A DNA stretch of 64,000 nt from Parcubacteria group bacterium (GTDB lineage: Bacteria; Patescibacteriota; Patescibacteriia; UBA2169). Shown in pieces: positions 8,831-37,617 of this stretch. The first letter of the stretch is position 1; each line of letters opens with the position of its first letter. Position numbers and translations under genes: made by a program. The stretch covers positions 35,320 to 99,319 of the forward strand of contig JACOYR010000004.1 in the NCBI GenBank assembly GCA_016181765.1, written 5' to 3'. The notes beneath the pieces were generated by a model, which made no database searches, was not told where the DNA came from, and worked only from the letters and a program-made list of their open reading frames with translations.

Positions 8831-8911
8831 TGGTATCATACCTTTTTTGGGCAAAAAAAACAGGGGGATCTCTCAAGACTATCCGAGAGTCCCCCTTGAT
8901 ACGCCGCAGGG

Positions 8912-11412: not shown

Positions 11413-11577
11413 CTAGCTTCGGACATACACCGCGCCGGCGAAAAAGCCCGAGTAGATGAACGCCAAAAACCAGTACGGAACCCCGCCGGTGATTGTCTTG
11501 AAGACCGGCAATGAAAGGACGAAAAACACGGCCCACATTCCGGCCGTGATGGCCAGCTTCACGGTCCGCGCGCTCAT
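11413..11577 (-). CDS. small membrane protein (54 aa, two TM segments)
   Basis: Translation MSARTVKLAITAGMWAVFFVLSLPVFKTITGGVPYWFLAFIYSGFFAGAVYVRS. SD AAAGGGGG lies 5 nt upstream. Its ATG overlaps the stop of an upstream 31 aa mini-ORF (ATGA). The ORF track shows a longer 87 aa version. Confidence 0.45.
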   Translation of the reverse strand: MSARTVKLAITAGMWAVFFVLSLPVFKTITGGVPYWFLAFIYSGFFAGAVYVRS

Positions 11578-11929
11578 CCCTGCCCCCTTTGCTGGCGAAT
11601 ATGGAACCTGCATACCAGCACGACGGCGACAAGCGCCGCCGAAATGGATATTACAAGCCAGGCATACATGGCTCAACCCTCCCTTTCTGACTAGAAATCC
11701 AGTTTCCTATCGCGCCCGTGCCGCCCATGCCCAGCAGAATACCGCCCGCGCACAGCATTATGGTGTTAGCCAACGCTTGCCTCCTCGAGTGAAAGTCGCT
11801 TTTTCATTTCAAGGAGCAAAACCGCCTCCTCGGTATATAGTTACACTACCTCTAATTTTTGACTTTGCCAAGACAAAAGAGGTATGCTTGTATCAATCGT
11901 TCATATCCCCATTACGAAAGAGGAAACAG

Positions 11930-12172
11930 GTGGATAAACACGAACGAGAACGGCATTGCGAAACCGCGAAGCGGCTGTACGCAGGAAGGCGCGTAAGCGT
12001 CACGTCCCGGGACTTCACTGAACCAGTAGTGCTGGACGTGCTCCGCGCGAACTCCAACCGCGGGTGCCCGTTTCAAGAGTTGTACTCCTTGTACGGCATA
12101 GACGTGCCAGGAGGCTTTGTTCGGGAGGTGGGGTTCTGGGAGGGAGACACATGCATCAACGTCATCGGCTGA
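11930..12172 (+). CDS. hypothetical small protein (80 aa)
   Basis: GTG start preceded by AAAGAGGAAACAG (good SD). Translation MDKHERERHCETAKRLYAGRRVSVTSRDFTEPVVLDVLRANSNRGCPFQELYSLYGIDVPGGFVREVGFWEGDTCINVIG. The upstream part of the 238 aa track ORF is low-complexity and rejected. Confidence 0.4.
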   Translation: MDKHERERHCETAKRLYAGRRVSVTSRDFTEPVVLDVLRANSNRGCPFQELYSLYGIDVPGGFVREVGFWEGDTCINVIG

Positions 12173-12230
12173 CCGCACGAATGCGGAAGCCAAAAAGGGC
12201 GGCTGCTCTCAAAGAGATGCGGCCGCCTCT

Positions 12231-12902
12231 TCACGTCAGGCTATGTTTTTGTTTGATCCGAGAAATAGCTGCCTGGTATTGTTTTACTTTTCTTCCAACG
12301 CCGAGTTTAGTCAAAAACGACGGCATCCAGGCGGACATGGTGCCGCCGGGCTTGACGGTAAACAGCGCCTCATCAATCCACTTCCCGACGTGCCCCTGCT
12401 CCAGCATAGTAAGCCACAAATCCCAATCTTGCAAGCGCTTGAGCGACTCGTCAAATCCCGGAAAGTGCTCCCGCCGCATAAGTGATGTGGTGTGGATATA
12501 GGGCATCTCGCGGAGCTTGTCCGCGCTGAACTCCCAGAGCCTGAACTTTTTCCATCCGAACTTGAATGATGAGTATGCGTACGACACACCCGGGTTCTCA
12601 TCAAGAACTTTTGACATTTTGGACAGCATGCCCGGCCGCATGACCACGTCCGCGTCGCAGAAGAGGATGTATTGGCCGGTTGATTCTTTGAACCCGCGAT
12701 TGCGCGCTGATGGAGCTCCTCTGTTCTCCTGCCGGATGACGCGAATGCTCGCGACATCGCTGACTGGCTCCCGCGACCCATCATCAACGATAATAATTTC
12801 AAAATTTTGAAATGTTTGATTTTTTATGGATTGCAAACATTGCGCAAGCTCTTTGGCGTGGTTATAGACGGGGATGATAATGGAAATTATGGGTGAGTTC
12901 AT
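12231..12902 (-). CDS. family 2 glycosyltransferase
   Basis: 223 aa. Motifs IIIPVYNHAKELAQCLQSI and EIIIVDDGS, and a DxD-like FCDADV. Confidence 0.85.
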   Translation of the reverse strand: MNSPIISIIIPVYNHAKELAQCLQSIKNQTFQNFEIIIVDDGSREPVSDVASIRVIRQENRGAPSARNRGFKESTGQYILFCDADVVMRPGMLSKMSKVLDENPGVSYAYSSFKFGWKKFRLWEFSADKLREMPYIHTTSLMRREHFPGFDESLKRLQDWDLWLTMLEQGHVGKWIDEALFTVKPGGTMSAWMPSFLTKLGVGRKVKQYQAAISRIKQKHSLT

Positions 12903-13939
12903 ATTTCTGTTTTCTGATAACCGTTTTCTATCTGCGTAATAATTGCCTCCGCAATCTGCCCGATATTACCCGGCTCAACCAAAACGCCATTATCCCCCAC
13001 GGCCTCGGGCACGCCGCCCACGCGTGACCCTATGACGGGTTTATTAAACATCTGCGCTTCTTTGTACACAATGCCATAGCCCTCAAAATCATTGGGATCG
13101 TCTGTGGGGGTGAGTATAAAGCAATCGCAGGCCGAGAGCCAGGCATACTTCTCCTCATCGCTCACTTCGCCGGTGAACATAACGTGTCCGCCCCGGCTGG
13201 ACAGTTCCAGCTCCCGCCTCTCTGTTCCATCGCCGACCACCACGTACACGAGCTCCGGAACAATCTTCCAAACCTCGCGCAATGAGCGCAACACAACATC
13301 AATCCCCTTTCGCTTTACCAGGCGGCCGACCGAAAGCAGGATCGGCCGTGCGCCGAGCGCGTACTTTTGGCGGAGTTCGGCTGCATGCGCCCGGTAGCGG
13401 GCGGGGTCAACCTTCGGAACGCGCGGGTAAGAAACGCGCGCGCGTGAAGGGTCAATGCCGTATTTTAGAAGCAATTGGCTCGTTGCACGGCTGTTCGCAA
13501 TAATCTCGGAAGCTTCGCGCAGAATCCTTGATGCCCACCATCGCTTCCAGGCTGAACGCCGCGCCATCACCAAATCAAGGCCGTGCACGTACACGCGATA
13601 CGGAATTTTGAATCTCCACTTCCACCACAAGGCGGCATAGCCAATAGGCAGGATATGGGAAATCCAGAGATAATCAGGCCGACCACCCCCTAACCCCCTC
13701 CTGGATACAGGAGGGGGAATCGCGCGCCACAACAATGGCAGCCAGTGCGGCCACTTGTCCCAGAAATGCTCCTCGGCCCTCATGACCCGAACCAACTCGC
13801 GTGACGCGCCAACTTCGCCGGCGAGATAGGTCGCAACCCCGCCATATTTCGGGGCCCCCAGCGATTCCTGCGGAATCGTCTGGGGTAAACTCGGCGGGTA
13901 CTCAAGCGTGAGCAGCAAGGGATGTTTTCTGTTCGGCAT
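12899..13939 (-). CDS. GT4-family (GT-B fold) glycosyltransferase with two in-frame palindromic insertions
   Basis: C-terminal GT4 signature EGYGIVYKEAQMFNKPVIGSRVGGVPE. N-terminal EYPP..GGVATY motif is split by an inserted segment. A second insertion PPPVSRRGLGGGRPDY is encoded by a GC-hairpin element. Start taken at MPNRK (13939), ahead of the EYPP block. Confidence 0.8.
   Translation of the reverse strand: MPNRKHPLLLTLEYPPSLPQTIPQESLGAPKYGGVATYLAGEVGASRELVRVMRAEEHFWDKWPHWLPLLWRAIPPPVSRRGLGGGRPDYLWISHILPIGYAALWWKWRFKIPYRVYVHGLDLVMARRSAWKRWWASRILREASEIIANSRATSQLLLKYGIDPSRARVSYPRVPKVDPARYRAHAAELRQKYALGARPILLSVGRLVKRKGIDVVLRSLREVWKIVPELVYVVVGDGTERRELELSSRGGHVMFTGEVSDEEKYAWLSACDCFILTPTDDPNDFEGYGIVYKEAQMFNKPVIGSRVGGVPEAVGDNGVLVEPGNIGQIAEAIITQIENGYQKTEI
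13683..13719. repeat. GC-hairpin repeat element, copy inside the GT4 coding sequence
   Basis: CCACCCCCTAACCCCCTCCT-ggatac-AGGAGGGGGAA. Same family as the copies at 21065, 37428 and 37563. Confidence 0.7.
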
Positions 13940-19469: not shown

Positions 19470-20357
19470 CTAGGCCACCAGGAGCACGCCCGCGAACATC
19501 AGGGCAATGGCCGCGAATTTCTGTACGAGCACCCTGCGGCCTGCCTCCTCATGCAGGATGCGCGGGAACCAGGCGCTTAGAATCACGGCATAGAGCAGGA
19601 CAAAAAACGGCTGGGTTGATGCGAGCGCATTCACCAGGGTGATGTACCCGCCCAAGGCCGCAAACATAAAAATAAAGCTCGCGGCAAAATCCATGGACTC
19701 TATGCACCCGAGGATGATGAATACTTTTTTCCCGTGTTCTTTTGCGGTAGCGCGGATATCCGGGTAAGCTCTGATGAGCAGGGGGATAAGGACAATAGTT
19801 TGCCCCGCGTACATATAAAAAAGAGCCGTCCAGTACCCTGCCGCATCCAACAAGTATTTAGTGGCAATATTGCCAATGGCAACCAACACCGCGCAGAGCG
19901 CCATAAGCCAGAAAGCCTTATTCGGGGTCATGCGCCTGCCCGCGGCTTTTGGGGAAAGCAGCAGTGCGCCGAGCACAATGGCCGCGATTCCGAGGTATGT
20001 TTTTCCGGTAAAAAGTTCATTGAGAAAAATACCGGCAAGCAGTGCCGTAAAGAGCGGCACCACGTGGAGCAAGGGCGCAATGCGGGATATTTCCTCTGCT
20101 GTAATGGCATTAAAATAAAAAATTCCTGCAATCATATACAGGGCGCCGCCGGCCATGCCCAAAAGCCCGAGGTTCCGGGGAACCTCTTCAACGGTCCCCG
20201 AAAGCAACAGGACAAGAGCCGTGGTTCCGGCAAAAACCAAGGAGAGCGAAAACATCACCAGCGGATTTTTTACGTACCTGCTGACGACGTGCTTGTCCAG
20301 CACATTCACCCCGGCCCACAGCGCGGCGGATAGAATTGCAAAAAACTGCCAAGCCAT
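19470..20357 (-). CDS. EamA/DMT-superfamily transporter
   Basis: 295 aa with 10 TM helices arranged as two EamA-like halves. Confidence 0.7.
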   Translation of the reverse strand: MAWQFFAILSAALWAGVNVLDKHVVSRYVKNPLVMFSLSLVFAGTTALVLLLSGTVEEVPRNLGLLGMAGGALYMIAGIFYFNAITAEEISRIAPLLHVVPLFTALLAGIFLNELFTGKTYLGIAAIVLGALLLSPKAAGRRMTPNKAFWLMALCAVLVAIGNIATKYLLDAAGYWTALFYMYAGQTIVLIPLLIRAYPDIRATAKEHGKKVFIILGCIESMDFAASFIFMFAALGGYITLVNALASTQPFFVLLYAVILSAWFPRILHEEAGRRVLVQKFAAIALMFAGVLLVA

Positions 20358-20406
20358 TTAATTTAATTTGAAGTGAATGTATTTTCCAAATTTTACGTCT
20401 TGCATG

Positions 20407-21060: not shown

Positions 21061-21064
21061 AGTA

Positions 21065-21102
21065 CCACCCCCTTGCCCCCTCCTCATTAGAGGAGGGGGG
21101 AA
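21065..21102. repeat. GC-hairpin repeat element at the murC / CDP-alcohol-PT junction
   Basis: CCACCCCCTTGCCCCCTCCTC-atta-GAGGAGGGGGGAA. The first 22 nt are identical to the copy at 37563. Confidence 0.7.
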
Positions 21103-27865: not shown

Positions 27866-28015
27866 AAACTGCTATGATAGCGCATCATAGCGGTTGATGC
27901 AAGCAACCTAATACAATTACTTTGGGGAATGGCTGGTAATTCCGAAACAACGTTATTCCTTCCACTTAATGGAACACCCCATGGAGGGGGGTTTTGATTT
28001 GCACGAGCCTGAATT

Positions 28016-28882
28016 TCAGATATTTTTATTTCTGATCTGTCGCGCGTTCTTGCCGGTAATTGCGCTGTTTCCGGTTTTTTTCTCTATGGACTTTCGGGCC
28101 GCGCCAGCCACGCTCCCGCCTTCGCGCGCCACGGTTTTATTTTCATCCAAATTTTTCGGTTCTCTTTTTTCCGATATTTCAGTGGTCGCGGTTTCGGCAA
28201 GCATATTCAAAACCAATTCCAAATTAGTCATATTGTCCCGCAGATTTTCTTTTTTCAGCCCTTTGAGATTTTTATACTCCTTGGTGGTCAATCCGGCCCA
28301 TGCCCGGCTTATCTCATCGGTTAGAATTGCAAACTCCAGACCTTGTTTCATGCCCCGTTTTTCCCATTCATCAGTAAGCGCTTTGCGGATTTCAATGCTT
28401 TTGAGGCGCTGATTGACCCACTCCGGGCTGTATCCTTTTTGCAGGTATGTTTTTAAGGCACGATTAATGGCCAATTCGGGATCTGCTGTTTCTTCCAAGC
28501 GCTCATAGCCCACTTGCGCCAGCCAAAGCTTAAATGGTTCGGCATTTGGCGAAGGTATTGACTGGATGAGCCGGAGCATAACCTCTGTATCGGTGGCATC
28601 TGTGGCATAATATTTGCCATCTTTAGCCATAAATTTCAGTTCGTGACATTTTGTCACGGACTGACTACCTTCTTCTTTTAGTCTTTGTTTTAACTTTCTC
28701 CAATATGCCCCGGCATCAATACTGTTAGTTAACACTCTCACCACATCAATCACAGAAAAATACCAGAGTTCTTTTTCATCATCCCAGTGGCGGCGAATTT
28801 GATTGCCCTCAAAAAGCGCGATGGATTTATTTTTTGATTGTTTCTTTTCGTTGTTCATATATAATCCGTTGCCATTTTCCAT
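28016..28882 (-). CDS. Bro-N / KilA-N-like DNA-binding domain protein (DinD/antirepressor-like)
   Basis: 288 aa. The N-terminal block IALFEGNQIRRHWDDEKELWYFSVIDVVRVL fits the Bro-N pattern (F.G..IR...D.E.WF...DV...L). The rest is alpha-helical. Confidence 0.55.
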   Translation of the reverse strand: MENGNGLYMNNEKKQSKNKSIALFEGNQIRRHWDDEKELWYFSVIDVVRVLTNSIDAGAYWRKLKQRLKEEGSQSVTKCHELKFMAKDGKYYATDATDTEVMLRLIQSIPSPNAEPFKLWLAQVGYERLEETADPELAINRALKTYLQKGYSPEWVNQRLKSIEIRKALTDEWEKRGMKQGLEFAILTDEISRAWAGLTTKEYKNLKGLKKENLRDNMTNLELVLNMLAETATTEISEKREPKNLDENKTVAREGGSVAGAARKSIEKKTGNSAITGKNARQIRNKNI

Positions 28883-28890
28883 TCTATCTC

Positions 28891-29196
28891 TTATTTGACA
28901 AATTGACTACCAAAAGCCCTGTGCAATATAGATTGCTCCAAAGCCGCCAAATCATCACGGGTTGATTTTTGGTATTCCTTTAGCCGCCGAACCTTCTCGG
29001 CAAGCTGGTGAAATGGGATGGTGAAATGGGGACATGACCCATTTTTGATGACCCATATTTCCCGTTTCTGCGTGACCAGCCGGAAATGACTCAATCGGTT
29101 GTAGTAGCTCTTATAGGAATACGCGATGAACTCGCTTGCATAACTCACCCAACCAAGCCCTTCGCAAAATTTATTTCTTACCCTTGCCGAAAACAA
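28891..29196 (-). pseudogene. remnant of a type I restriction-modification S subunit (HsdS C-terminal fragment)
   Basis: 101 aa ORF whose end LAEKVRRLKEYQKSTRDDLAALEQSILHRAFGSQFVK resembles the conserved C-terminal helix of HsdS (..L..LKQSILQKAF.G..). No complete target-recognition domains and no hsdM or hsdR nearby. Confidence 0.35.
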
Positions 29197-29692
29197 AATC
29201 TAGAGTAGGATCTAATTCTTTTAATAATTTTTTATGTTCTTGGAGAATTTCTTCTTGAATTTTTATTGATTCAGCCATACACCAATCACGTATAAGTTCA
29301 TAATTTTTGTTTTCCTTGCAATCTTTAGCTATCCCCTTTCCTTCAACCTCTTCCTTCATCATGTTTATTGCGAGTATAGAGATACATGCTTTTTTATCAT
29401 CTATGTATTGAGATAGCCCTGTATAACCCACTATTAGGTCGCTAAAGTCATCTCCATGTTTTGAGAATATAATCGCTATTTTAATCGCTTCTTTAATTTC
29501 GTCTTTTGAATAAGGCAATATAGAAATTGGCGCTCCAAAAACCATATAAGCTGATTTTTCCATTATCTTCCCATAATCATTGATTATTTTTTCAGCTTCT
29601 TTGACATCCATAGAGGGGAGAAAAAAGGTTTCAGGAATTGTTTTTATTGAGGGAACGATGACCTTGGTGGCGGTGATGGTGGGTGGATTCAT
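29171..29692 (-). CDS. hypothetical protein (AT-rich island)
   Basis: About 173 aa from MNPPTIT. No recognisable domain. Codon usage matches the AT-rich island. Confidence 0.45.
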   Translation of the reverse strand: MNPPTITATKVIVPSIKTIPETFFLPSMDVKEAEKIINDYGKIMEKSAYMVFGAPISILPYSKDEIKEAIKIAIIFSKHGDDFSDLIVGYTGLSQYIDDKKACISILAINMMKEEVEGKGIAKDCKENKNYELIRDWCMAESIKIQEEILQEHKKLLKELDPTLDFVFGKGKK

Positions 29693-29705
29693 GTTGATAT
29701 AAGGC

Positions 29706-31043
29706 TCATCTAAACAAACTTTTGAACCAACTTTGAATTCTCGAAAAGAAAATAAAATTAAGTTTTGACTCCGTCGTTTTCTCATTGCTGGTTTCAAAAT
29801 CAGTAATAATATCTTCTACGACAAATTGATTAGTTGTATTTATTTCTTCTGCAGTCTGTTCTGGCTCAATCTGGACGCACGAATTACCAACTTCTCTATA
29901 CCCGTCATCACACAGCCACACATCTGTTAGGCTTTCTACAGCATGCGCATGTTCTGGAATTTGTATGCAATATTTTTTATTTAACGAAAGAGCATATCCT
30001 TCATTACAATGGATACTTGCTTCTTTTTCTTCCCTAACCACTTCGCTAGAAAGCACCCTAGCTCCTGTTTCATTCTCTGTAGTTGTAGCCTCTATACCGG
30101 GTTGAGTATTTGTAGATTTATCAATAGATGGCGTAGCTACCACAGGAGTAGTAGGAGTATCTTGTTCTACAGTGGCAGGAGAAGCAAAAATTGGTTCGCG
30201 TTGATTTTGTTTATCACTATTGAATAGATTAACCCTTGAATTAAGATTATTCAACAATTGCTCGTAAGAATTGTCTACTTCCTCTATGCACCTCTCATTT
30301 TCAAAAATATACCCATAGTCACACTCGCATGTTTTCGAAGAAGAATCGTAACTTGAATAATAACCATAATTATCATGGCAGTATGAATCACCATCTACAC
30401 AGGTTTGCCCCCCAAATAAATTCGTATCCAGAACATACCCTCTGCCACACTTACAACTATCGGTTAAAATATCGTGTTCAGCATTCCATCCCAGCAACTC
30501 TTGACAATAATCATCTCGCGACACACACTTCCCGCCATTCAAAATATAGCCATAACTACATTTACACGAACTAGTCAGGGAGTTATAACTTGAATTATAG
30601 CCATACAAATTCCTACAATAGGTATTGCCAGAAACACATTCCTTATCACCAAAAATATTCGTATCCACTACATAGCTATAATTACACTCACATCCACCAG
30701 ACAACGAATCATATGAAGAGTTTAAAGGACACGAAGGCCTAGAAGGAATTGAGGGGGTTAGGAAATCGTAATTCAATGAAGGATATGTGTAATCAGGCGC
30801 TGGGGTGGTATAGCCAGTACCACCATCGCCCCAATGGCTATGTATAGGATCAGATGGTTGTGGTAATCCTTTATTGTTATGACAGTGGTACTCGCCATAA
30901 GACAACCCCCAAGAACTGCAGTTCGTTCTACAAGTATGGCAACCCGAGCCATCAGTGCCCCCGGGATGAGCGAAAGTAGAATCCGATAATCCAAATATGA
31001 CAAAGGTTGCCCCCAGTAGTATGAAAAAAAATCTAAGGCGCAT
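29706..31043 (-). CDS. secreted protein with N-terminal His/Cys-rich module and four tandem ~40 aa Cys-rich repeats
   Basis: 445 aa. Signal peptide MRLRFFFILLGATFVIFGLSDSTFA. N-terminal module HPGGTDGSGCHTCRTNCSSWGLSYGEYHCH. Four repeats of the form C(E/K)CxYGYxL..xxCVxxDxYC. A Thr/Pro-rich linker and an acidic C-terminal domain follow. Confidence 0.6.
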   Translation of the reverse strand: MRLRFFFILLGATFVIFGLSDSTFAHPGGTDGSGCHTCRTNCSSWGLSYGEYHCHNNKGLPQPSDPIHSHWGDGGTGYTTPAPDYTYPSLNYDFLTPSIPSRPSCPLNSSYDSLSGGCECNYSYVVDTNIFGDKECVSGNTYCRNLYGYNSSYNSLTSSCKCSYGYILNGGKCVSRDDYCQELLGWNAEHDILTDSCKCGRGYVLDTNLFGGQTCVDGDSYCHDNYGYYSSYDSSSKTCECDYGYIFENERCIEEVDNSYEQLLNNLNSRVNLFNSDKQNQREPIFASPATVEQDTPTTPVVATPSIDKSTNTQPGIEATTTENETGARVLSSEVVREEKEASIHCNEGYALSLNKKYCIQIPEHAHAVESLTDVWLCDDGYREVGNSCVQIEPEQTAEEINTTNQFVVEDIITDFETSNEKTTESKLNFIFFSRIQSWFKSLFR

Positions 31044-31070
31044 AATCTAATAGTGAGTCGGAAAACCTAT

Positions 31071-32537
31071 CTAAAGTTCCCATTTAAAGTAACGATTCAC
31101 CGCATATTCAACGCCTACGCGGAAACGATTAGTGCGCTTATCATTCTCAATTTCATGAATTTCCCGATCTAGCGCATCAATTTCTGATTTAACGCGATTT
31201 TTTTCTTTTTCTTTCATCTCATGATAACGCCTATCTATATCGCCAATACTTTCTTTAAGGACTTTCTCGTTCTGTGTAATTAGAGCATCCTTCCTTGTAT
31301 GAATATTTGTTATGTCTGTCTTTGTAGTTCTCACTTGGTTAAAAATTTTTTTTAAATGAGAATGTAGCCGCTTTACCGTGGGAGATGAGACAAAAAGGCC
31401 TTCAAATGGCTTTATTGCTGTACGCGATATCAACTCAATGATGAATAACACTAAACACACCAACCATTTAATTCCATATGTAATACTGCCGAGGAATGAT
31501 TTGATCGTCCTCCAAACAAGGCTCCACTCGGTATGGCTCAAAAATAATGCGGCAAGAAAACCAACCCCAAAAAATAGGGCTATATATACAAGGTCACTAA
31601 AATTTTCGTTTATATTTTCACGGCGATAAAAGTACAAAGAAACTGGAATACTTATAAGTGTAACAATACCTATCAATAGCGCTATTGCCTCAAACAACTT
31701 TTTCAATAAACTAGGACACGACTTGTGGTTGTGAAAAAATTTTACACCCTCAAAAGCGAAAACCATAATAACCATAAAAGCAATTGTAAATTGGATCAGA
31801 CTTATCCCGTCACCACGGTTCCACACGGGGATTGCGTCTATATTGAGTCGTGAGCTAATGTAATAATCTACAATGAGCAACACAATAAAAATCACAATTG
31901 GCCACCAATGCGCAACAGCACTAAATCCATCAAGCGATGTAGTTAATTTATCGTGCGTGTCCAATAGCCATTTTTTTGATGCTACTGTGATTGGATTTTT
32001 TCTTGCCTTTTGCTTCTCTTCTCTGTACTCCTTTTCCGCATCAAGAAGCGCAATAGTTAATCTTTCTTTTTCTGATTCAAATTTTGTCAATTTCTCAACC
32101 AAGCTCTGCAGTTCTATATCAAGTTTTTGAATTTCATTCTCCAAAGATTGCTTAAAATTGTTTAAATGTTTTTCTGCGTACTCGTGTTCATTTTTTAAAT
32201 TTTGCTCAAGACGCGCGACAAACTCTTTGCGTTCTTCTTCTAATTTAGTTTTTTTTAATCTCAATATTTCAATACGCTCCTGCATATTCGTCATAAATTT
32301 CGGCTTCGGAACACTATCCCAAATTCTGGACTTAGCTATGCCATGCTGTTTGTCTAGTGGCTCATTTTTAAACGAAGTATCAATTTCATTAAGAATACGA
32401 CGATTCAAATTCTTAGTAGCGATTCTGCCAACATTAACGCCGCGACCGAAACGGCTTGTATAGTACACAATAGTGGCCAGTAATGCAGCCCCTCCAATAC
32501 CCGGCACTGCGATTGCGATGATTTGCCAGTAATTCAT
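31071..32537 (-). CDS. membrane protein with flanking coiled-coil regions (unknown function)
   Basis: 488 aa. N-terminal TM, long heptad-like KE-rich helix, four central TM helices and a C-terminal coiled coil. No family recognised. Confidence 0.5.
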   Translation of the reverse strand: MNYWQIIAIAVPGIGGAALLATIVYYTSRFGRGVNVGRIATKNLNRRILNEIDTSFKNEPLDKQHGIAKSRIWDSVPKPKFMTNMQERIEILRLKKTKLEEERKEFVARLEQNLKNEHEYAEKHLNNFKQSLENEIQKLDIELQSLVEKLTKFESEKERLTIALLDAEKEYREEKQKARKNPITVASKKWLLDTHDKLTTSLDGFSAVAHWWPIVIFIVLLIVDYYISSRLNIDAIPVWNRGDGISLIQFTIAFMVIMVFAFEGVKFFHNHKSCPSLLKKLFEAIALLIGIVTLISIPVSLYFYRRENINENFSDLVYIALFFGVGFLAALFLSHTEWSLVWRTIKSFLGSITYGIKWLVCLVLFIIELISRTAIKPFEGLFVSSPTVKRLHSHLKKIFNQVRTTKTDITNIHTRKDALITQNEKVLKESIGDIDRRYHEMKEKEKNRVKSEIDALDREIHEIENDKRTNRFRVGVEYAVNRYFKWEL

Positions 32538-32541
32538 ATAG

Positions 32542-33918
32542 TTATCTACAAAGATGATTTAAATAAATACTGCGTTTAATTTGTGCGAAGCTCTCATCTT
32601 CGTCCTCATTCTTAAAAAGTTTAATACAAGCGTTAGAAGAGATAACAGCATTAAAAGTCGCGCCAATATCACTAATATACCGTTGAGGGCAAACGAGCGA
32701 AATATTGTAGAGAGGGTATTTCACCCTGGCTTCTTCTTGTGCTATTTCTGAATCAATCTCCTGGTGCTCTGTAATGTATTTTCTCTGTTGAGCGCTATTA
32801 TTATTATTCTGCTGTTGAAAATATGCCCCACAATCTTGCAAAAATTTCGCGTATGAATCTGATTCTATTTGGTATGTATTTTTCCAACCATATGTTTTAG
32901 GAAGACCAGTCATCGTGCCAGCAGTAACAATAACAACTTTATCATCCGACTCTTTCATAGAACTTAAATTCTCAACAGAAGGATCAAGGTAAAGCTTTTG
33001 TTGTGTGAACCAATCTTTAAAAGTATTTTGTAACACATCAGTCTCGTGCCAAGTACAACTAAATTTATCATTATTTTTAATGTCGCAAGTATGCTCTTTA
33101 ACAGTAGTTATATAAAGCACTTCAGTTTTTCGAGAATCGTCTCTTTCTTTTGCCATTCTAAAAATTGGGTATGATCGTTTTAACTCCAAAGTTAGTGTGC
33201 TGCCGTTTTCGGCTTTTGTTTCAAACTGCAAAGTGTCGCTGGAAGGAAGTTCTGATATGTATCCATTCACAATTCGAGTTATTTCTTTAATGTCATTTGA
33301 AGTAGTGGGCGCAAGAACCAACTTTGTTGTTGTGTTTGAATTTGTAAGTGTGGTAGTAAATGGGGGTTGTAATTCGGTATCTTCCCCTTCAATTTTTTGA
33401 CGCAGTTCAACCCAAACCTGTGGAGTAATCACTTCAGAATATCCATCCGCAATAAACTTAACTTTGTTTGCGATAGGATCAATCTCAAATGACTTTTTGA
33501 AATCCAGATTTTTCTGTTTATTGAGTATTGCGCTCCATACGCCAGGAGATTCTTGATCTCTTGCTTCATAAGGAAGAATAATAAGACAATAATCATCCAC
33601 ATCTGCACCCCTGAAAGTAAAAGCCGTATTGCCTTCTTTTTGATTACAAATAGAATCGAGAGGAGGAGGGTCCACAATCTTAAACATCCCAAACACAATC
33701 CCAGCCACAATCAAAATAATTACAGTAGCAACAATAATCGTTTCCTGTGTATCCTTGCGCTCTTTTAATCTATCACTCCCTGGCGGGACCTGTGGGTGTG
33801 TATCCATCATAGGAAGTAACGTTATCTCCTCTAGCCGTTGTTTCTCAATTTCTTTTCCACAGTTAGGACAAAAATTGTCTTTCTCTTTAAGTTGTTCTCC
33901 GCACTTACTGCAATACAT
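32542..33918 (-). CDS. zinc-ribbon / single-pass membrane protein with large extracytoplasmic domain (unknown function)
   Basis: 458 aa. N-terminus MYCSKCGEQLKEKDNFCPNCG (CxxC..CxxC zinc ribbon), one TM helix (IIVATVIILIVAGIVFGMF), then a roughly 370 aa Ser/Thr/Asn-rich ectodomain. Confidence 0.5.
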   Translation of the reverse strand: MYCSKCGEQLKEKDNFCPNCGKEIEKQRLEEITLLPMMDTHPQVPPGSDRLKERKDTQETIIVATVIILIVAGIVFGMFKIVDPPPLDSICNQKEGNTAFTFRGADVDDYCLIILPYEARDQESPGVWSAILNKQKNLDFKKSFEIDPIANKVKFIADGYSEVITPQVWVELRQKIEGEDTELQPPFTTTLTNSNTTTKLVLAPTTSNDIKEITRIVNGYISELPSSDTLQFETKAENGSTLTLELKRSYPIFRMAKERDDSRKTEVLYITTVKEHTCDIKNNDKFSCTWHETDVLQNTFKDWFTQQKLYLDPSVENLSSMKESDDKVVIVTAGTMTGLPKTYGWKNTYQIESDSYAKFLQDCGAYFQQQNNNNSAQQRKYITEHQEIDSEIAQEEARVKYPLYNISLVCPQRYISDIGATFNAVISSNACIKLFKNEDEDESFAQIKRSIYLNHLCR

Positions 33919-33944
33919 ATCCGAACCATAGCTAAATAAGCTTA

Positions 33945-34175
33945 TTATGGCAAGCTCTCACATGCCTCACCATCTTTATTCCCATCTAGCCGATGAATAT
34001 CATTACTTACCCCGCCACAGGACTCAAACACACGCTGTGCTTCTGCGCGTGTCTTAAAATCTGAACAGTTATAGGCATTGCTGTCACAAATTGTGTTGTT
34101 GGATGAGCCAGCGCTGCAACCTGTCAACGCCAAACTGGCAAGGAGCAGTAGCAAGATGTAGTGTAGTTGTCGCAT
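33945..34175 (-). CDS. Excalibur (extracellular Ca-binding) domain lipoprotein
   Basis: 76 aa from MRQLHY. Lipobox LTGC. DxDxDGxxCE-type motif LDGNKDGEACE. Near-identical to the C-terminal 55 aa of the adjacent thermonuclease. Confidence 0.6.
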   Translation of the reverse strand: MRQLHYILLLLLASLALTGCSAGSSNNTICDSNAYNCSDFKTRAEAQRVFESCGGVSNDIHRLDGNKDGEACESLP

Positions 34176-34197
34176 ATAATTTAGTTTAATGCCAAAT

Positions 34198-35091
34198 TTA
34201 AGGTAAACTCTCGCACGCCTCGCCATCGCCATCCGCATCAAGACGATGGATGTCGTTTGCCACGCCGCCACACTGCTCAAACGCGGCCTGGGCTTCTGCG
34301 TGCGTTGTAAAGTTACTGCAGTTGTAAACATTGTTTGAACAATCGTACTGGCCTTGCGCTTGTGGCTCTGTATCTGGTTCTATAGTCGAGGGGGGTGGAG
34401 CGCTTGGTGCTGGCTCCCCTTGCTCTACTTCATCTGCGTCCGCGCACACGCCATCCGCCCACAGACCGCGCTTTGCTACGCGCGCCTCGTCCTCGGCTTG
34501 TTTAAATTGTTCTTGATACTTATATGGCAGGTTGTAGGTGTATTCGTGTCCATACCCCTCGCGTATCATCAAGTCGCTAAAGTTGGCGCCATCTTCAAAA
34601 AAAACGTAACGAAGCAAACGGCTGTACTTGTCGCGCTCGCCCTGGGTTGGATCTGCTTCCAGTCGGACACGATTACCGCTTAATACCTCCTTGGCTTTGT
34701 TGGATGCCTCTATGCCAAAACACTGTACTGGCTTTCGGGGATCAACTGTTTCTGGCGTGTCTATGCCAATGAGGCGTATAGTTTCGCTTGAGCCGTCCAT
34801 GTCAACAGCAATCGTATCCCCGTCAACTACTCTCACAACATCATATAATACTTCATCTGTGCTGGTTGCATTTTTATCCGTGTCATTATGTCCTTCAACT
34901 GGTTCAATAGCATCGTCATCTACGGCTGATTCATTTGAAACACTTGCGCCTTCAGCTTGTTGATTTTGGTCTGAAATATTCTGTGTCGGCGCGCTCGCGG
35001 ATTGACTTTTTGCATTACGAACATTATCTGAAGAAGATGTACATCCGCTTAATATAATAGATAAAATACTTAAAACAACGATCTTCTTCAT
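34198..35091 (-). CDS. thermonuclease (SNase-like) lipoprotein with C-terminal Excalibur domain
   Basis: 297 aa. Lipobox ILSGC. SNase core VDGDTIAV..IRLIGIDTPE..GE..ASNKAKEVL..RLLRYVF..REGYG. The C-terminus is an Excalibur motif LDADGDGEACE. Confidence 0.75.
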   Translation of the reverse strand: MKKIVVLSILSIILSGCTSSSDNVRNAKSQSASAPTQNISDQNQQAEGASVSNESAVDDDAIEPVEGHNDTDKNATSTDEVLYDVVRVVDGDTIAVDMDGSSETIRLIGIDTPETVDPRKPVQCFGIEASNKAKEVLSGNRVRLEADPTQGERDKYSRLLRYVFFEDGANFSDLMIREGYGHEYTYNLPYKYQEQFKQAEDEARVAKRGLWADGVCADADEVEQGEPAPSAPPPSTIEPDTEPQAQGQYDCSNNVYNCSNFTTHAEAQAAFEQCGGVANDIHRLDADGDGEACESLP

Positions 35092-35231
35092 AAAATTTTA
35101 TGGTTGTTATAAGGATATATGGCCTAACGTTTCGGCATATGATGCTGTATGAGCAATACGGGTGGAGTGAAGCGGAACCGCATACACGCCGTTGTACGAT
35201 GTAATGAAAAAAGTTTTAATTTCTAGTGCAA

Positions 35232-36464
35232 TTATTTTCTTGCTATTTTTTCCATAATTTTATGGTCATTTCCGAATCTGCACATCGCATCGCAGTTTCC
35301 ACTAAGATCTGACGATAAGATGTATCGTATGTCCAATCCCTTTTCTTTGACCGATGGTCTGCTGAGTTGGATTTTAATATCTTTTTCTCTTTCATCCGGT
35401 ATCGCAATGTAAAGTTTTGAACTATGTAATGGCAATGACAGTGATAAATCAGCAAGCCGCAAAATACCTGAATAAATTGATGTGCTTTTTTCTACTTCAA
35501 AAGCGCACACAATTATATTCGTGCCTTTTACAAACCAAACAACATCAATCAAACAAATAGTCTTGAATATATCTTGGTTTACATCTAACTCGGGAAACTT
35601 ATTTAAGCTGATGAAAGAAAATTTATTATCCCGATAGGTCTTTGAACGATCATTTGCGGCGGCAATTACGTCATATCCGAGTGCGTGGCCGATCTTAAGT
35701 AATTGATATTGCATCTCTGTATGCAATTCATCTTCGTGTTTTTCATTCTCAACTTTTGAATGGCGTTTATGAAGTTGTGCCAATATTTTTTCCCGATCTT
35801 TTTCTGAAAGTGACGCTCCTTTATCCACTAAAATATTGTTTGCCCCTATTTCGAATAAAAATCCCGCAAATGCACCTAAATCATTTGAAAAATGCCTTAG
35901 AAATTCATTATTTTTTTGAATTATTATCTCTCTCATTTTTAAGTATTCTTTCCAAGAACCCAATTTGATTTTTTCACGAAATAAAGTATTAAAACCTTTT
36001 ACGATTGCCGTATTGCATGGCGGAATAATTGTTGGATGCAGAAAATATAAAATACTACCAACTGCAGGTCCAAGCCCTTTAATATTTTTTTCATTCAGTT
36101 TTATGATTTCCGATATGATTGTTTCTTTGTTTGAGGTATTTAAACAATTTTCTAAAAATTGACCGAAATATTTTTTATTTTCCTGATTTTCATAGATATC
36201 CGGTATTCTTAATTTCGGTTTCCAATAAAATGGATGAGCCGCCCCTTCAAATACTTCTTTTTGTTCAGTAATGCAATTAAGAACAAACTCCAGTGAACTG
36301 CCCTTAAAGTCGTTTGGGAAATGCCCATTTTTTATGTCGTCAATTACCTGAATTACACCTCTTCTTACAGAACGAAAAGCTTTCAGTCTCTCTTCGCTAT
36401 TTACAAACCAAGTATGGTAAACCAAGTCATGGTTGTTTTTATATTGTTTGATAAGCTCGTCCAT
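35232..36464 (-). CDS. putative PD-(D/E)xK-fold nuclease with HhH-like motif (restriction-endonuclease-like)
   Basis: 410 aa and AT-rich. IKGLGPAVGSILYFLHP resembles a helix-hairpin-helix. Near the C-terminus IDVVWF..IIVCAFEVEKS fits the D..(D/E)xK nuclease core. No adjacent methyltransferase. Confidence 0.4.
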   Translation of the reverse strand: MDELIKQYKNNHDLVYHTWFVNSEERLKAFRSVRRGVIQVIDDIKNGHFPNDFKGSSLEFVLNCITEQKEVFEGAAHPFYWKPKLRIPDIYENQENKKYFGQFLENCLNTSNKETIISEIIKLNEKNIKGLGPAVGSILYFLHPTIIPPCNTAIVKGFNTLFREKIKLGSWKEYLKMREIIIQKNNEFLRHFSNDLGAFAGFLFEIGANNILVDKGASLSEKDREKILAQLHKRHSKVENEKHEDELHTEMQYQLLKIGHALGYDVIAAANDRSKTYRDNKFSFISLNKFPELDVNQDIFKTICLIDVVWFVKGTNIIVCAFEVEKSTSIYSGILRLADLSLSLPLHSSKLYIAIPDEREKDIKIQLSRPSVKEKGLDIRYILSSDLSGNCDAMCRFGNDHKIMEKIARK

Positions 36465-36575
36465 AATCTAAAGATACCTTTTATGATTATTTCTAAAACC
36501 ATTAGTGGAAAGAAATACTAAAACTTTTCATTATTTCGCCTAACTACTTGCTACCCCAAACACGCACAATGTGTA

Positions 36576-37265
36576 CTATTTCTTTTGCTTAAAAATAAAT
36601 ATCACAAACAAACCTATAACCACAAAATCAATCGCACCCCACAACGTCTTGTTATACAAATAAATAGGCATGATTGGATTAAACAGAATAGCAACAGCTA
36701 CAAAGCACCAAAACCAAAATCCTTTTTTCCGCAATGCCCGGTATAAGTAGTAGGCGTAGTAAATAGACGAGGCAGTCACAATAATCTTGGTAATAGTATA
36801 AAAACCATACGGCATCGGAAATACTGACAGAAACAGCACTATTGAGCTTACTATGGCGGGCCATCGGTAGAATTCAAGTTTGGAATGAACATGCGCCATA
36901 TGATTTTGCTCTGATTTTATCTTATTTGAGTGTAATAAATCCGTATTACGGCCATTTTCTTCTGTCTTTTCTACACTAGAAACATCACCGCCTAACAAAT
37001 ATATGCCATTTTTATAAACCACGACATCATGGCCAATAATCGTATTTATCTTATAACGATATTGCCTAATATGGTCTTCGGAGTAATCCTTTTCCCTATC
37101 CAAAAAATCGCCAATATCCGTTACTGTACCTTGCTTATTTGCGCATAAAAAAACAAGCACGCGGTAAGCGTTGCCGGTTAAGCGTAACTCCTTATTATGT
37201 TCATCAAAAACTTGCCTGCTATTAGTATCTAAACTAAAAAATTTATGTTTATACAACATATTCAT
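36576..37265 (-). CDS. ToxR/CadC-like membrane-anchored transcriptional regulator (OmpR-type winged HTH + C-terminal TM domain)
   Basis: 229 aa. The N-terminal ~90 aa (..ELRLTGNAYRVLVFLCANKQGTVTD..L..) fit the OmpR/PhoB C-terminal wHTH pattern. The C-terminal half has 3-4 TM helices. Confidence 0.5.
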   Translation of the reverse strand: MNMLYKHKFFSLDTNSRQVFDEHNKELRLTGNAYRVLVFLCANKQGTVTDIGDFLDREKDYSEDHIRQYRYKINTIIGHDVVVYKNGIYLLGGDVSSVEKTEENGRNTDLLHSNKIKSEQNHMAHVHSKLEFYRWPAIVSSIVLFLSVFPMPYGFYTITKIIVTASSIYYAYYLYRALRKKGFWFWCFVAVAILFNPIMPIYLYNKTLWGAIDFVVIGLFVIFIFKQKK

Positions 37266-37427
37266 CTCGTATTGTTGCTGTCAATCTATCATTTTCCAGC
37301 CTAAAAATCAACCCAAAACTCCCGCCTCCTCGGTGGGCAGACGGCTCATCCCAAAACAGCCGATCGGCTCATTTACACCATTTGAGCCGATCGCGGCCCG
37401 GATATGAGCCGATTTACCATCCCCCAA

Positions 37428-37464
37428 CCACCCCCTCGCCCCCTCCTTGGTAAAGGAGGGGGAA
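37428..37464. repeat. GC-hairpin repeat element (island / pilus-operon boundary, copy 1)
   Basis: CCACCCCCTCGCCCCCTCCTT-ggta-AAGGAGGGGGAA. Confidence 0.7.
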
Positions 37465-37508
37465 TTAATCGCGGCCGCTTGAAGCGTCCGCGCCACTCCC
37501 TATCATCC

Positions 37509-37543
37509 CCTTGTATCAAATCATCACTTTCTGGTATAATACA
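37509..37543 (+). promoter_or_regulatory. putative sigma70 promoter (extended -10) for the pilus operon
   Basis: TTGTAT (-35), 18 nt spacer, TGgTATAAT, about 75 nt upstream of the pilB ATG. The leader contains a GC-hairpin repeat element. Confidence 0.45.
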
Positions 37544-37562
37544 CACAGGCAAAAATATCACC

Positions 37563-37602
37563 ACCCCCTTGCCCCCTCCTTAAAATAAAAGGAGGGGGAA
37601 CG
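37563..37602. repeat. GC-hairpin repeat element (pilB leader, copy 2)
   Basis: CCACCCCCTTGCCCCCTCCTT-aaaataa-AAGGAGGGGGAA. Confidence 0.7.
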
Positions 37603-37617
37603 CGAAAGTAAAATAAA

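What the first reader, a model, noticed from the sequence alone, without database searches (positions are those of the whole stretch)
27866..37300. About 9.4 kb AT-rich island of lineage-restricted genes between the dcw cluster and the pilus operon
Base composition drops sharply, visibly AT-rich from about 28.9 kb to 37.3 kb. Gene content switches to proteins without housekeeping homologues. These are a Bro-N/KilA-N-like protein, an HsdS C-terminal remnant, a Cys-rich secreted repeat protein, a coiled-coil membrane protein and a zinc-ribbon ectodomain protein. There are also duplicated Excalibur modules, one fused to a secreted thermonuclease. A PD-(D/E)xK nuclease-like protein and a ToxR-like membrane regulator are also present. 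The right edge coincides with two GC-hairpin repeat copies and a set of GAGCCGAT direct repeats. No integrase or tRNA is visible, so if this is a genomic island its mobilisation functions are lost or outside the window. The content suggests a surface-interaction or defence cargo.
Basis: partly seen in the sequence, partly recalled or inferred. Interest (0 to 1): 0.6.

Follow-up and report, generated by a model that had tools for sequence, protein, structure and literature searches.

The report
Foreign AT-rich gene island, immobile
A 9.6 kb block of foreign, AT-rich DNA sits between the pilus and cell-wall operons of an uncultured Patescibacteria bacterium; it carries ten accessory genes and no mobility genes, which makes it an ordinary genomic island with unusually exact boundaries.

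Summary
GC falls from 0.55-0.62 to 0.29-0.45 over about 28.0-37.3 kb. GC3 is 0.29-0.54 in the island and 0.67-0.81 in host genes. Tetranucleotide correlation with the host drops from 0.8-0.9 to about 0.

An empty site exists. In three contigs of a sister lineage (79-85% nucleotide identity), pilB and the SET gene start 159 bp apart; here they are 9,753 bp apart. Homology breaks at 27902 and resumes near 37507. So about 9.6 kb was inserted between two retained promoters, with no flanking repeats, integrase or tRNA.

The cargo is a mosaic of ten co-oriented genes:
- A Bro-N protein (PADLOC PDC-S13) next to a weak HsdS-like remnant.
- A solitary NmeDI_C-family nuclease that occurs widely across phyla.
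- A staphylococcal-type nuclease lipoprotein and a duplicated Excalibur lipoprotein.
- A very rare zinc-ribbon and coiled-coil membrane protein pair, with one other occurrence in public data.

Not all genes are lineage-restricted. The "ToxR-like" call is not supported. The GC hairpins are a dispersed 40-bp host repeat, not island ends.

Verdict: a genuine but ordinary genomic island, a new member of a known kind.

The parts
27903..37500 (.). Inserted segment as defined by the empty site in the sister lineage. It is about 9.6 kb and replaces about 25 nt. The right limit is accurate to about 20 nt.
   Evidence: blastn of L259, L260 and L261 against the window: homology ends at 27902 and resumes by 37507-37610. 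Read directly from the sequences.
28016..28882 (-). Bro-N domain protein, 288 aa, of the PADLOC PDC-S13 / phrog_15286 family. It is a widespread solitary candidate defence gene. GC3 is 0.46.
   Evidence: Pfam Bro-N 2.7e-8. PDC-S13 6e-130, full length. phrog_15286 6e-117. Homologues sit inside a CRISPR I-B operon and next to a HEPN/MNT pair.
28891..29196 (-). Short ORF (85-101 aa) whose last 41 residues resemble the C-terminus of a type I HsdS subunit. Possible remnant, weakly supported. GC3 is 0.54.
   Evidence: PADLOC Specificity_I E 0.0047, profile positions 348-388 of 391. No Pfam hit and no tblastn hit in plasmids.
29171..29692 (-). 173-aa cytoplasmic protein with no detectable family. GC3 is 0.30.
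   Evidence: No hit in Pfam, PADLOC, PHROGs, NCBIfam or plasmids. The start codon follows the independent gene call.
29706..31043 (-). Secreted 445-aa protein: signal peptide, an N-terminal YHYH metal-binding-type motif, then four tandem Cys-rich repeats of about 40 aa. It has 24 Cys.
   Evidence: NCBIfam YHYH_alt 2.7e-10. Repeats and signal peptide. Only the YHYH part has relatives in plasmids, in Bacillales. No viral relatives.
31071..32537 (-). 488-aa membrane protein. It has an N-terminal TM segment, about 160 aa of charged coiled-coil-type sequence, five TM segments, and about 100 aa of charged tail.
   Evidence: Topology. Exactly one homologue among 1.84 billion representatives: P0123, 36% identity over the full length.
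32542..33918 (-). 458-aa protein with a cytoplasmic zinc ribbon, one TM segment and an ectodomain of about 380 aa with conserved Cys. It is the conserved partner of the coiled-coil membrane protein.
   Evidence: Pfam Zn_Ribbon_1 8e-8. One homologue in 5.8 billion proteins (P0122, 44%), encoded directly upstream of the coiled-coil homologue on L172.
33945..34175 (-). 76-aa lipoprotein consisting of one Excalibur Ca-binding module.
   Evidence: Pfam Excalibur 5.8e-6. Lipobox LTGC read directly. 72% identical to the module in the neighbouring nuclease. L172 also has an Excalibur C-terminus just before its zinc-ribbon gene.
34198..35091 (-). 297-aa lipoprotein: lipobox, low-complexity linker, staphylococcal-nuclease domain, and a C-terminal Excalibur module. 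GC3 rises from 0.26 at the 5' end to 0.54 at the 3' end.
   Evidence: Pfam SNase 1.6e-23 and Excalibur 4.7e-5. PADLOC C3a212 2e-46. NCBIfam NucI 1.7e-34, below its cutoff. GC3 gradient. The DGDT, IDTPE and DKYSR motifs are visible in the sequence.
35232..36464 (-). 410-aa solitary nuclease. The C-terminal PD-(D/E)xK domain is of the NmeDI_C type (ID307 ... E323-V-E325-K326). The conserved N-terminal domain of about 230 aa has no family hit. GC3 is 0.29.
   Evidence: Precomputed PF27126. PADLOC REase_II 6e-9 on residues 234-383. Invariant catalytic residues. No DNA methyltransferase motif that survives Pfam checking anywhere in the window.
36576..37265 (-). 229-aa membrane protein. The soluble N-terminal part of about 130 aa has unknown fold. 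The C-terminal part is DUF6804 with three TM segments.
   Evidence: Pfam DUF6804 4.7e-20. Topology. L172 has a 101-aa DUF6804 gene right after its coiled-coil gene, 38% identical. The winged-helix reading is not supported.
37342..37411 (.). Nested inverted repeat built from three (A)TGAGCCGAT units, about 80 bp upstream of the DUF6804 gene, in the GC-rich right end of the inserted DNA.
   Evidence: MFE -34.2 kcal/mol (+ strand) and -37.9 kcal/mol (- strand), z -6.6 and -4.6. Motif positions. No Rfam match.
37427..37463 (+). Copy of a dispersed host repeat of about 40 bp (ACCACCCCCTyGCCCCCTCC-loop-GGAGGGGG), lying inside the inserted DNA.
   Evidence: Four copies in the window, at about 13689, 21064, 37427 and 37560. 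The copy at 21064 is a clean 40-bp insertion relative to L259.
27866..27902 (-). Left flank: the retained SET promoter-like region (TTGCAT-17-TATCAT, then 8 nt, then ATG). The breakpoint lies immediately upstream of the -35 element.
   Evidence: Direct comparison of the window with L259 and L261.
37507..37617 (+). Right flank: the retained pilB promoter-like region (TTGTAT-18-TGGTATAAT) and the 5' leader. The leader carries a second repeat copy (37560-37600) that the sister lineage lacks.
   Evidence: Direct comparison of the window with L259, L176 and L173.

Best explanation
This is a horizontally acquired genomic island that cannot move itself. It lies in the genome of an uncultured Patescibacteria (Parcubacteria-group) bacterium with about 57% GC.

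Shown: about 9.6 kb of foreign DNA at about 36-40% GC was inserted into the short divergent intergenic region between pilB and the SET-mraY-dcw genes. The insertion happened after this lineage split from a sister lineage at about 80% nucleotide identity. It landed between the two promoters, which are both retained.

Inferred: with no integrase, transposase, tRNA or target duplication, entry was most likely by DNA uptake followed by illegitimate or homology-facilitated recombination.

The block is a mosaic of three parts, all co-oriented with the dcw genes.
1. Left: a probable fragment of a type I restriction-modification locus. It holds an HsdS-like tail and an embedded PDC-S13 Bro-N candidate defence gene.
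2. Centre: an envelope set. It holds a conserved but extremely rare pair (zinc-ribbon ectodomain protein plus coiled-coil polytopic membrane protein). With it are a Cys-rich YHYH secreted protein, an Excalibur lipoprotein, and a surface-anchored Ca-dependent staphylococcal-type nuclease.
3. Right: a solitary NmeDI_C-type PD-(D/E)xK nuclease and a DUF6804 membrane protein.

Likely function (inferred): the two nuclease-type genes and the Bro-N gene act in defence against incoming DNA. The lipoprotein nuclease degrades extracellular nucleic acid at the cell surface. The remaining envelope proteins alter the cell surface. None of these activities has been tested.
For: Foreign composition: GC, GC3 and tetranucleotide profile.

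Empty site: three independent contigs of a sister lineage have pilB and SET 159 bp apart. Homology ends at 27902 and resumes near 37507.

Outgroups: L176 and L173 (MraY 77% and 73% identical) have pilB directly beside the small membrane gene. Of 28 further relatives with this junction, 22 also have the direct junction. No island gene occurs in any of these loci.

Not a chimera: independent assemblies from nine other sequencing runs are 100% identical to the window. One 15.9-kb contig spans pilus operon, island and SET.

No mobility functions: all ten ORFs are accounted for and none is a recombinase. There is no tRNA. No flanking direct repeat exceeds chance 8-mers.

Mosaic origin:
- There are two GC3 classes.
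- The NmeDI_C gene is 77% identical in DNA to a gene in an unrelated genome, and the similarity stops at the ORF ends.
- That family is solitary in four of four other genomes checked.
- Bro-N homologues are solitary inserts in defence loci.
- The Excalibur / zinc-ribbon / coiled-coil / DUF6804 order recurs on a 32%-GC contig.

Intact catalytic motifs are present in both nucleases (direct reading of the SNase sequence).

Genomic islands, including ones with restriction-modification cargo, are documented in Patescibacteria (PMC12455944). PDC families were defined as genes embedded in BREX, DISARM or type I R-M loci (bioRxiv 10.1101/2024.01.29.577857).
Against: - The mechanism of entry is inferred only from the absence of mobility genes and repeats.
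- The donor is unknown.
- The right 200 bp of the inserted DNA (37300-37500) is GC-rich and host-like, which a simple one-step insertion of AT-rich DNA does not explain.
- A solitary restriction-type nuclease with no methyltransferase in the window is unexplained. The NmeDI site RCCGGY is not depleted (104 found, 102 expected).
- The HsdS remnant is only weakly supported.
- No expression data exist.
- Five of the ten proteins have no functional assignment.
- AlphaFold models of two of them were unusable.
Confidence: 0.85

Rival explanations
1. The ten genes form one coherent system rather than a mosaic. On this reading a membrane-bound regulator (the DUF6804 protein) binds the upstream GAGCCGAT inverted repeat. 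It controls an operon for capture and degradation of foreign DNA at the surface and inside the cell, functionally coupled to the adjacent type IV pilus.
For: All ten genes are co-oriented and tightly packed, with gaps of 4-150 bp. A strong nested inverted repeat lies upstream of the first gene. Excalibur, zinc-ribbon, coiled-coil and DUF6804 genes also co-occur on L172. The island contains two nucleases and lies next to the pilus genes.
Against: There are two GC3 classes. The NmeDI_C and Bro-N genes are solitary inserts in unrelated contexts elsewhere. L172 has DUF6804 directly after the coiled-coil gene, and the portion of L172 recovered shows neither the NmeDI_C-type nuclease gene nor the Cys-rich gene. 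No DNA-binding domain could be shown in the DUF6804 protein. The sister lineage has the same pilus operon without the island.
Confidence: 0.1
2. The region is a decayed prophage or other integrative element whose integrase and structural genes have been deleted.
For: The Bro-N domain is classically phage-associated. The Bro-N protein matches phrog_15286 and has 173 confirmed relatives in IMG/VR (80 loci kept). The nuclease and Excalibur proteins match PHROG families, and one viral contig has a nuclease 56% identical.
Against: There is no capsid, tail, terminase, lysis, replication or integrase gene. There is no att-like repeat and no tRNA. The nuclease of the NmeDI_C family, the coiled-coil, zinc-ribbon and Cys-rich proteins have no viral relatives. 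Bro-N homologues also lie in non-phage defence contexts.
Confidence: 0.04
3. The block is ancestral low-GC DNA that was lost in the relatives, or it is an assembly or binning chimera.
For: The closest outgroups are themselves low-GC (0.31 and 0.37), similar to the island. One short-read contig (L082) ends close to both island edges.
Against: An ancestral origin needs repeated independent losses in the sister lineage, both low-GC outgroups and 28 further relatives. It also needs one 9.6-kb patch to have escaped the genome-wide rise in GC. Against a chimera, both junctions are reproduced at 100% identity in independent assemblies of other runs.
Confidence: 0.02

Closest known systems
Genomic islands of Patescibacteria/CPR bacteria as catalogued in aquifer MAGs (PMC12455944), including islands with type I R-M systems and restriction endonucleases
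   Same: Atypical composition, accessory cargo that includes restriction-type genes, and presence in a streamlined Patescibacteria genome. [quoted passage not shown]
   Different: Here the insertion is delimited almost to the base pair by an empty site in a sister lineage. There is no complete R-M system, only an orphan nuclease and a possible HsdS tail. The island is far lower in GC than its unusually GC-rich host. The core cargo is a membrane-protein pair with one other known occurrence.
Defence islands and genes embedded in type I R-M loci (PADLOC PDC candidates, bioRxiv 10.1101/2024.01.29.577857)
   Same: The Bro-N protein is a full-length PDC-S13 match (E 6e-130). It lies directly downstream of, and co-oriented with, an HsdS-like C-terminal remnant. 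A homologue is embedded in a CRISPR I-B operon.
   Different: No HsdM or HsdR gene is present and the HsdS similarity is marginal. Defence activity of PDC-S13 was not found to have been tested in the papers searched. Most of the island is envelope genes rather than defence genes.
NmeDI type II restriction-modification system of Neisseria meningitidis (PMC2095814)
   Same: The nuclease shares the C-terminal PD-(D/E)xK catalytic domain (PF27126 NmeDI_C; PADLOC REase_II), with intact D...ExK residues.
   Different: Only the C-terminal 150 aa or so match. The protein is 410 aa against 351 aa, with an unrelated and highly conserved N-terminal domain. There is no adjacent methyltransferase here or in four other genomes. 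RCCGGY is not avoided. The specificity and the dependence on modification are unknown.
Secreted or lipoprotein staphylococcal-type thermonucleases with Excalibur domains (for example NucI and EcnA in NCBIfam)
   Same: It has an SNase domain with the Ca-binding and catalytic motifs, a lipoprotein signal and an Excalibur Ca-binding module.
   Different: It scores below the equivalog cutoffs (119 bits against 250 for NucI; 76 against 180 for EcnA). The gene has a 5'-to-3' GC3 gradient that suggests a chimeric origin. A second free-standing Excalibur lipoprotein gene follows it.

Membership tests
Genomic island (horizontally acquired accessory region) | Base composition and oligonucleotide usage differ from the host genome | tested here: met
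   GC is 0.34-0.44 in the island against 0.55-0.65 outside. GC3 is 0.29-0.54 against 0.67-0.81. Tetranucleotide correlation is about 0 against 0.64-0.93.
Genomic island (horizontally acquired accessory region) | Absent from the same locus in close relatives (empty site) | tested here: met
   L259, L260 and L261 have pilB and SET 159 bp apart, against 9,753 bp here. Outgroups L176 and L173 and 22 of 28 further relatives have a direct junction.
Genomic island (horizontally acquired accessory region) | Integrase or other recombinase, tRNA target, flanking direct repeats (classical mobile island) | tested here: not met
   None of the ten ORFs is a recombinase. There is no tRNA in 64 kb. Only chance-level 7-9-mers are shared between the edges.
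Prophage or prophage remnant | Structural, packaging, lysis or integration genes of phage type | tested here: not met
   PHROGs hits are limited to the Bro-N, nuclease, Excalibur and zinc-ribbon families. Four of six island proteins scanned have no relatives in IMG/VR.
Type I restriction-modification system | HsdR, HsdM and a full HsdS with two target-recognition domains | tested here: not met
   There is only a 41-residue C-terminal similarity to Specificity_I at E 0.0047. No HsdM or HsdR is present.
Type II R-M system of the NmeDI type | PD-(D/E)xK catalytic domain of the NmeDI_C family | tested here: met
   Precomputed PF27126 on this exact protein. PADLOC REase_II 6e-9. D307, E323, E325 and K326 are invariant across the family.
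Type II R-M system of the NmeDI type | Cognate DNA methyltransferase encoded alongside | tested here: not met
   The neighbours are the DUF6804 and SNase genes. A motif scan of all window ORFs followed by Pfam found no DNA methyltransferase. The rest of the genome could not be searched.
Type II R-M system of the NmeDI type | Full-length homology to R.NmeDI and RCCGGY specificity | tested here: inconclusive
   Only residues 234-383 align to the 351-position model. RCCGGY is not depleted, at 104 found against 102 expected. Specificity cannot be tested in silico.
PADLOC PDC-S13 (candidate single-gene defence) | Full-length match to the family profile | tested here: met
   E 6.1e-130, residues 17-286 on profile positions 3-272 of 286.
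PADLOC PDC-S13 (candidate single-gene defence) | Anti-phage activity | not testable with these tools
   No paper in the searchable library mentions PDC-S13. PDCs are predictions made from embedding in known defence loci.
ToxR/OmpR-type membrane-bound transcription regulator | N-terminal winged-helix (Trans_reg_C) DNA-binding domain | tested here: not met
   No Trans_reg_C hit even at E up to 5. BLASTP against the PhoB effector domain, recalled from memory, gave E 18. The AlphaFold model has pLDDT 46 and is unusable.
ToxR/OmpR-type membrane-bound transcription regulator | Single TM segment followed by a periplasmic sensor domain | tested here: not met
   The C-terminal part is DUF6804 with three TM segments and no ectodomain.
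Staphylococcal nuclease (SNase) family | SNase fold domain with Ca-binding and catalytic residues | tested here: met
   PF00565 at 1.6e-23 over profile positions 1-107 of 107. The DGDT, IDTPE and DKYSR motifs are read directly in the sequence. It is not an equivalog of NucI or EcnA, scoring below both cutoffs.

The most novel reading that the evidence does not exclude
The Excalibur lipoprotein, the zinc-ribbon ectodomain protein, the coiled-coil polytopic membrane protein and the DUF6804 protein may form a previously undescribed envelope module. The module is known from only two loci in all public sequence. It would travel between low-GC ultra-small bacteria and act at the cell surface together with the Ca-dependent nuclease. 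Possible roles are capturing and degrading foreign or host DNA for nucleotide scavenging, or attachment to a host cell.
Probability: 0.15. Interest if true: 0.55.

Novelty: new member of a known kind. Interest (0 to 1): 0.3.

Why it matters
Genomic islands are already documented in Patescibacteria, so the kind is not new. The value here is the clean natural experiment. The insertion is bounded almost to the base pair. It lies between two retained promoters in a streamlined genome. It has no mobility genes and has not drifted toward host composition. A sister lineage provides the empty site.

This gives a concrete case for asking how ultra-small, probably competent bacteria take up and fix foreign DNA without integrases. 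It also shows that the pilB-mraY junction is a recurrent insertion site across the clade. It further flags two things worth separate study: a membrane-protein pair with only two known occurrences, and a highly conserved solitary nuclease family that inserts as a single gene in many phyla.

Tried and rejected
- Flanking att-like repeats: the repeat finder and a k-mer comparison of both edges found only chance-level 7-9-mers.
- GC hairpins as island ends: rejected. The same 40-bp element occurs at about 13689 and 21064. The 21064 copy is a clean insertion relative to the sister lineage.
- HsdS remnant: no match next to Bro-N homologues in 80 viral loci, in plasmids or in Pfam. Only a marginal PADLOC hit remains.
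- ToxR-like winged helix: no Pfam hit, no BLASTP similarity to PhoB and no PDB sequence hit.
- AlphaFold of the DUF6804 protein (pLDDT 46) and the zinc-ribbon protein (pLDDT 40) were too poor for fold search, so no fold search was run.
- The word-index homologue search for the coiled-coil protein returned nothing, not even the protein itself. It was swamped by low-complexity candidates and was replaced by the exhaustive search.
- PADLOC hits of the coiled-coil protein to LmuB, PbeC and ZorA are treated as coiled-coil noise.
- Restriction-site avoidance for RCCGGY: none.
- Rfam: nothing in the window or in the right-end intergenic region.
- Population variation: all short-read contigs are identical to the window apart from one 42-bp indel. 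No contig of this strain shows the empty site.

Full report
**Observation**

The composition claim holds.
- In 1-kb windows GC is 0.34-0.44 from 28 to 34 kb and from 35 to 37 kb. Most of the remaining window is at 0.55-0.65.
- The 200-bp profile places the drop at about 27.85-28.0 kb and the rise at about 37.3 kb. There is an internal bump to 0.51-0.57 at 34.1-34.8 kb.
- Third-position GC of the ten island genes is 0.29-0.54. Eleven flanking genes have 0.67-0.81.
- The tetranucleotide correlation of 2-kb windows with the rest of the window is -0.19 to 0.16 inside the island and 0.64-0.93 outside.

The region holds ten ORFs, all on the minus strand and tightly packed. The window has no tRNA gene and no Rfam match.

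**Host and flanks**

The left flank is FtsW, MurD, MraY, a small two-TM protein and a SET-domain protein. The right flank is PilB, PilC and pseudopilins. MraY is at most 66-68% identical to species representatives. The best matches are Patescibacteria MAGs labelled Falkowbacteria, Kuenenbacteria, Kerfeldbacteria, Komeilibacteria and Uhrbacteria. The exact proteins occur in an NCBI MAG named Parcubacteria group bacterium, on a 281-kb contig.

**Is it an insertion?**

Yes, and the evidence is layered.

1. Distant relatives. I ran tblastn of all window proteins on 80 MraY loci. In 28 of them pilB lies upstream of mraY and divergent from it. In 22 of those the two start codons are 408-782 bp apart. 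In six they are 2.2-3.1 kb apart. None has any island protein or SET.
2. Closer relatives. A metagenome scan with PilB found two: L176 (MraY 77%, PilB 70%) and L173 (73%, 69%). There pilB starts 181 and 211 bp from the small membrane gene. Both are low-GC (0.31 and 0.37).
3. Sister lineage. The 90%-identity cluster of the SET protein has a representative from other datasets. It lies on three contigs (L259, L260 and L261; GC 0.54) that align to the window at 79-85% nucleotide identity on both sides. On these contigs pilB and SET start 159 bp apart. In the window the distance is 9,753 bp.

Reading the sequences gives the breakpoints. Left homology ends at 27902, immediately upstream of the -35-like TTGCAT of the SET promoter. 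Right homology resumes at about 37507, with the pilB promoter-like TTGTAT-18-TGGTATAAT. About 25 nt of the empty site are replaced by about 9.6 kb.

SET is shared by the window and the sister lineage but is missing from the low-GC outgroups. In those outgroups the promoter-like GGACTAA...TTGTATGAT motif of the small membrane gene is conserved, and it abuts the SET stop codon in the window. SET is therefore an older, compositionally adapted acquisition at the same spot.

Some relatives carry a PMT_2 glycosyltransferase or two secreted proteins at this junction. The junction is a recurrent insertion site.

**Not an artefact**

Independent assemblies of nine other runs from the same study are 100% identical to the window. 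One 15.9-kb contig spans pilus operon, island and SET.

**No mobility signature**

- None of the ten ORFs is a recombinase.
- The two edges share only chance-level 7-9-mers.
- The two GC hairpins at the right edge are real, but they are copies of a dispersed element of about 40 bp. Further copies lie at about 13689 and 21064.
- The 21064 copy is a clean 40-bp insertion relative to the sister lineage.
- The 37560 copy sits in the pilB leader, outside the island, and is also absent from the sister lineage.
- The three GAGCCGAT units are arms of a nested inverted repeat at 37342-37411, with MFE -34 to -38 kcal/mol and z -4.6 to -6.6. Its role is unknown.
- The GC-rich 200 bp at the right end of the inserted DNA remain unexplained.

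**Cargo**

*Bro-N protein.* It is a full-length match to PADLOC PDC-S13 (6e-130) and phrog_15286. Relatives at 50-64% identity are numerous in IMG/VR and occur on plasmids. One relative lies between cas4 and cas1 of a type I-B CRISPR operon, and another lies next to a HEPN/MNT pair. PDC families were defined as genes embedded in BREX, DISARM or type I R-M loci. That fits the HsdS-like tail just upstream, but the similarity there is marginal.

*The 410-aa protein.* It carries the NmeDI_C catalytic domain, with invariant D307, E323, E325 and K326.
- Its family has more than 7000 members; the best 120 listed are 63-83% identical and come from several phyla.
- The gene is solitary in four of four other genomes examined.
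- DNA similarity stops at the ORF ends.
- In a GC-rich genome the gene is again AT-rich.
- R.NmeDI itself is a 351-aa type II enzyme with a cognate methylase (PMC2095814). Only the C-terminal 150 residues or so correspond.
- No DNA methyltransferase was found in the window, and RCCGGY is not avoided.

*Nuclease lipoprotein.* It has a complete SNase domain and an Excalibur module. A 76-aa Excalibur lipoprotein follows it, and the two Excalibur modules are 72% identical.

*Zinc-ribbon protein and coiled-coil membrane protein.* Each has exactly one homologue in the public collections searched. The two homologues are adjacent on one 3.4-kb contig of 32% GC. They are preceded by an Excalibur C-terminus and followed by a DUF6804 gene. 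The ectodomain shows long invariant blocks and conserved cysteines.

*Remaining genes.* The Cys-rich protein has a YHYH motif and four tandem repeats. The 173-aa protein has no detectable relatives.

**Interpretation**

The block is a mosaic of promiscuous single genes (the Bro-N gene and the NmeDI_C nuclease gene) and a rare envelope module. It was assembled in low-GC genomes and fixed here very recently, because it shows no drift toward host composition.

Entry without an integrase is most simply explained by DNA uptake and illegitimate recombination in an intergenic region. That step is inferred, not shown. The functions proposed are domain-level inferences: defence for the Bro-N and PD-(D/E)xK genes, surface nucleic-acid degradation for the lipoprotein nuclease, and surface remodelling for the rest.

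**Comparison and verdict**

Genomic islands, some with R-M cargo, are already described in Patescibacteria (PMC12455944). This is a new member of that kind. It is notable mainly for its exact boundaries, its lack of any mobility gene and its rare core module. Interest is modest.

Noticed in passing
window 13689-13720, 21064-21100, 37427-37463, 37560-37600: A dispersed palindromic element of about 40 bp (ACCACCCCCTyGCCCCCTCC-loop-GGAGGGGG) has four copies in 64 kb. The 21064 copy is a clean 40-bp insertion between two adjacent genes relative to sister-lineage contig L259. The 37560 copy lies in the pilB 5' leader. The 20 kb of sister-lineage sequence has no copy. It looks like a recently active REP- or MITE-like repeat.
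   Followed up: partly
window 27365/27366 (small membrane gene upstream of mraY): The window lacks 42 bp (14 codons, in frame) that are present in four independent short-read assemblies of the same strain. The missing part falls in the N-terminal region of the small two-TM protein. It is either a strain variant or an assembly error in the MAG.
   Followed up: partly
window 35232-36464; loci L170, L256, L257, L258: The NmeDI_C-family gene is a solitary single-gene insert among unrelated housekeeping or metal-resistance genes in every genome checked. Protein identity is 64-79% across the five genomes compared. DNA similarity stops at the ORF ends. No methyltransferase lies nearby. The N-terminal domain of about 230 aa is very conserved and has no family assignment. 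How such a gene spreads and is tolerated is unexplained.
   Followed up: partly
window 19480-20406: A 927-bp segment carrying an EamA-family transporter gene (19470-20357) has no counterpart in sister-lineage contig L259. There the CDP-alcohol phosphatidyltransferase gene is followed directly by infA. This is a second, smaller gene-content difference between the lineages.
   Followed up: partly
loci L006, L015, L019, L024, L026, L058 (region between pilB and mraY): Six relatives carry 2.2-3.1 kb of extra DNA at the same pilB-mraY junction. L006 and L015 have a PMT_2-family membrane glycosyltransferase there, and L019 has two secreted proteins. Together with SET and the island, this marks the junction as a recurrent insertion site in this clade.
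   Followed up: partly
window as a whole, compared with L173, L176, L259: The host genome is about 57% GC and its sister lineage about 54%. The next closest relatives are 31-37% GC, and several named relatives carry GC tags of 36-43 in their names. A strong upward GC shift seems to have happened in this small clade.
   Followed up: no
window 60020-61714 (minus strand): A SecD-like protein has a PpiC-type peptidyl-prolyl isomerase (Rotamase) domain between the first P1 segment and the P1 head subdomain. This is an unusual domain insertion.
   Followed up: no
window 4879-12902: A cluster of family-2 glycosyltransferases and a Wzy_C O-antigen-ligase-like protein has moderately lowered GC (0.50-0.53). 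Its tetranucleotide correlation with the host is lower than elsewhere (0.64-0.70 in two windows). It may be another variable surface-polysaccharide region.
   Followed up: no
window 34198-35091: Within the nuclease gene GC3 climbs from 0.26 in the signal peptide and linker to 0.42-0.56 in the nuclease and Excalibur domains. This suggests a chimeric gene assembled from parts with different histories.
   Followed up: no
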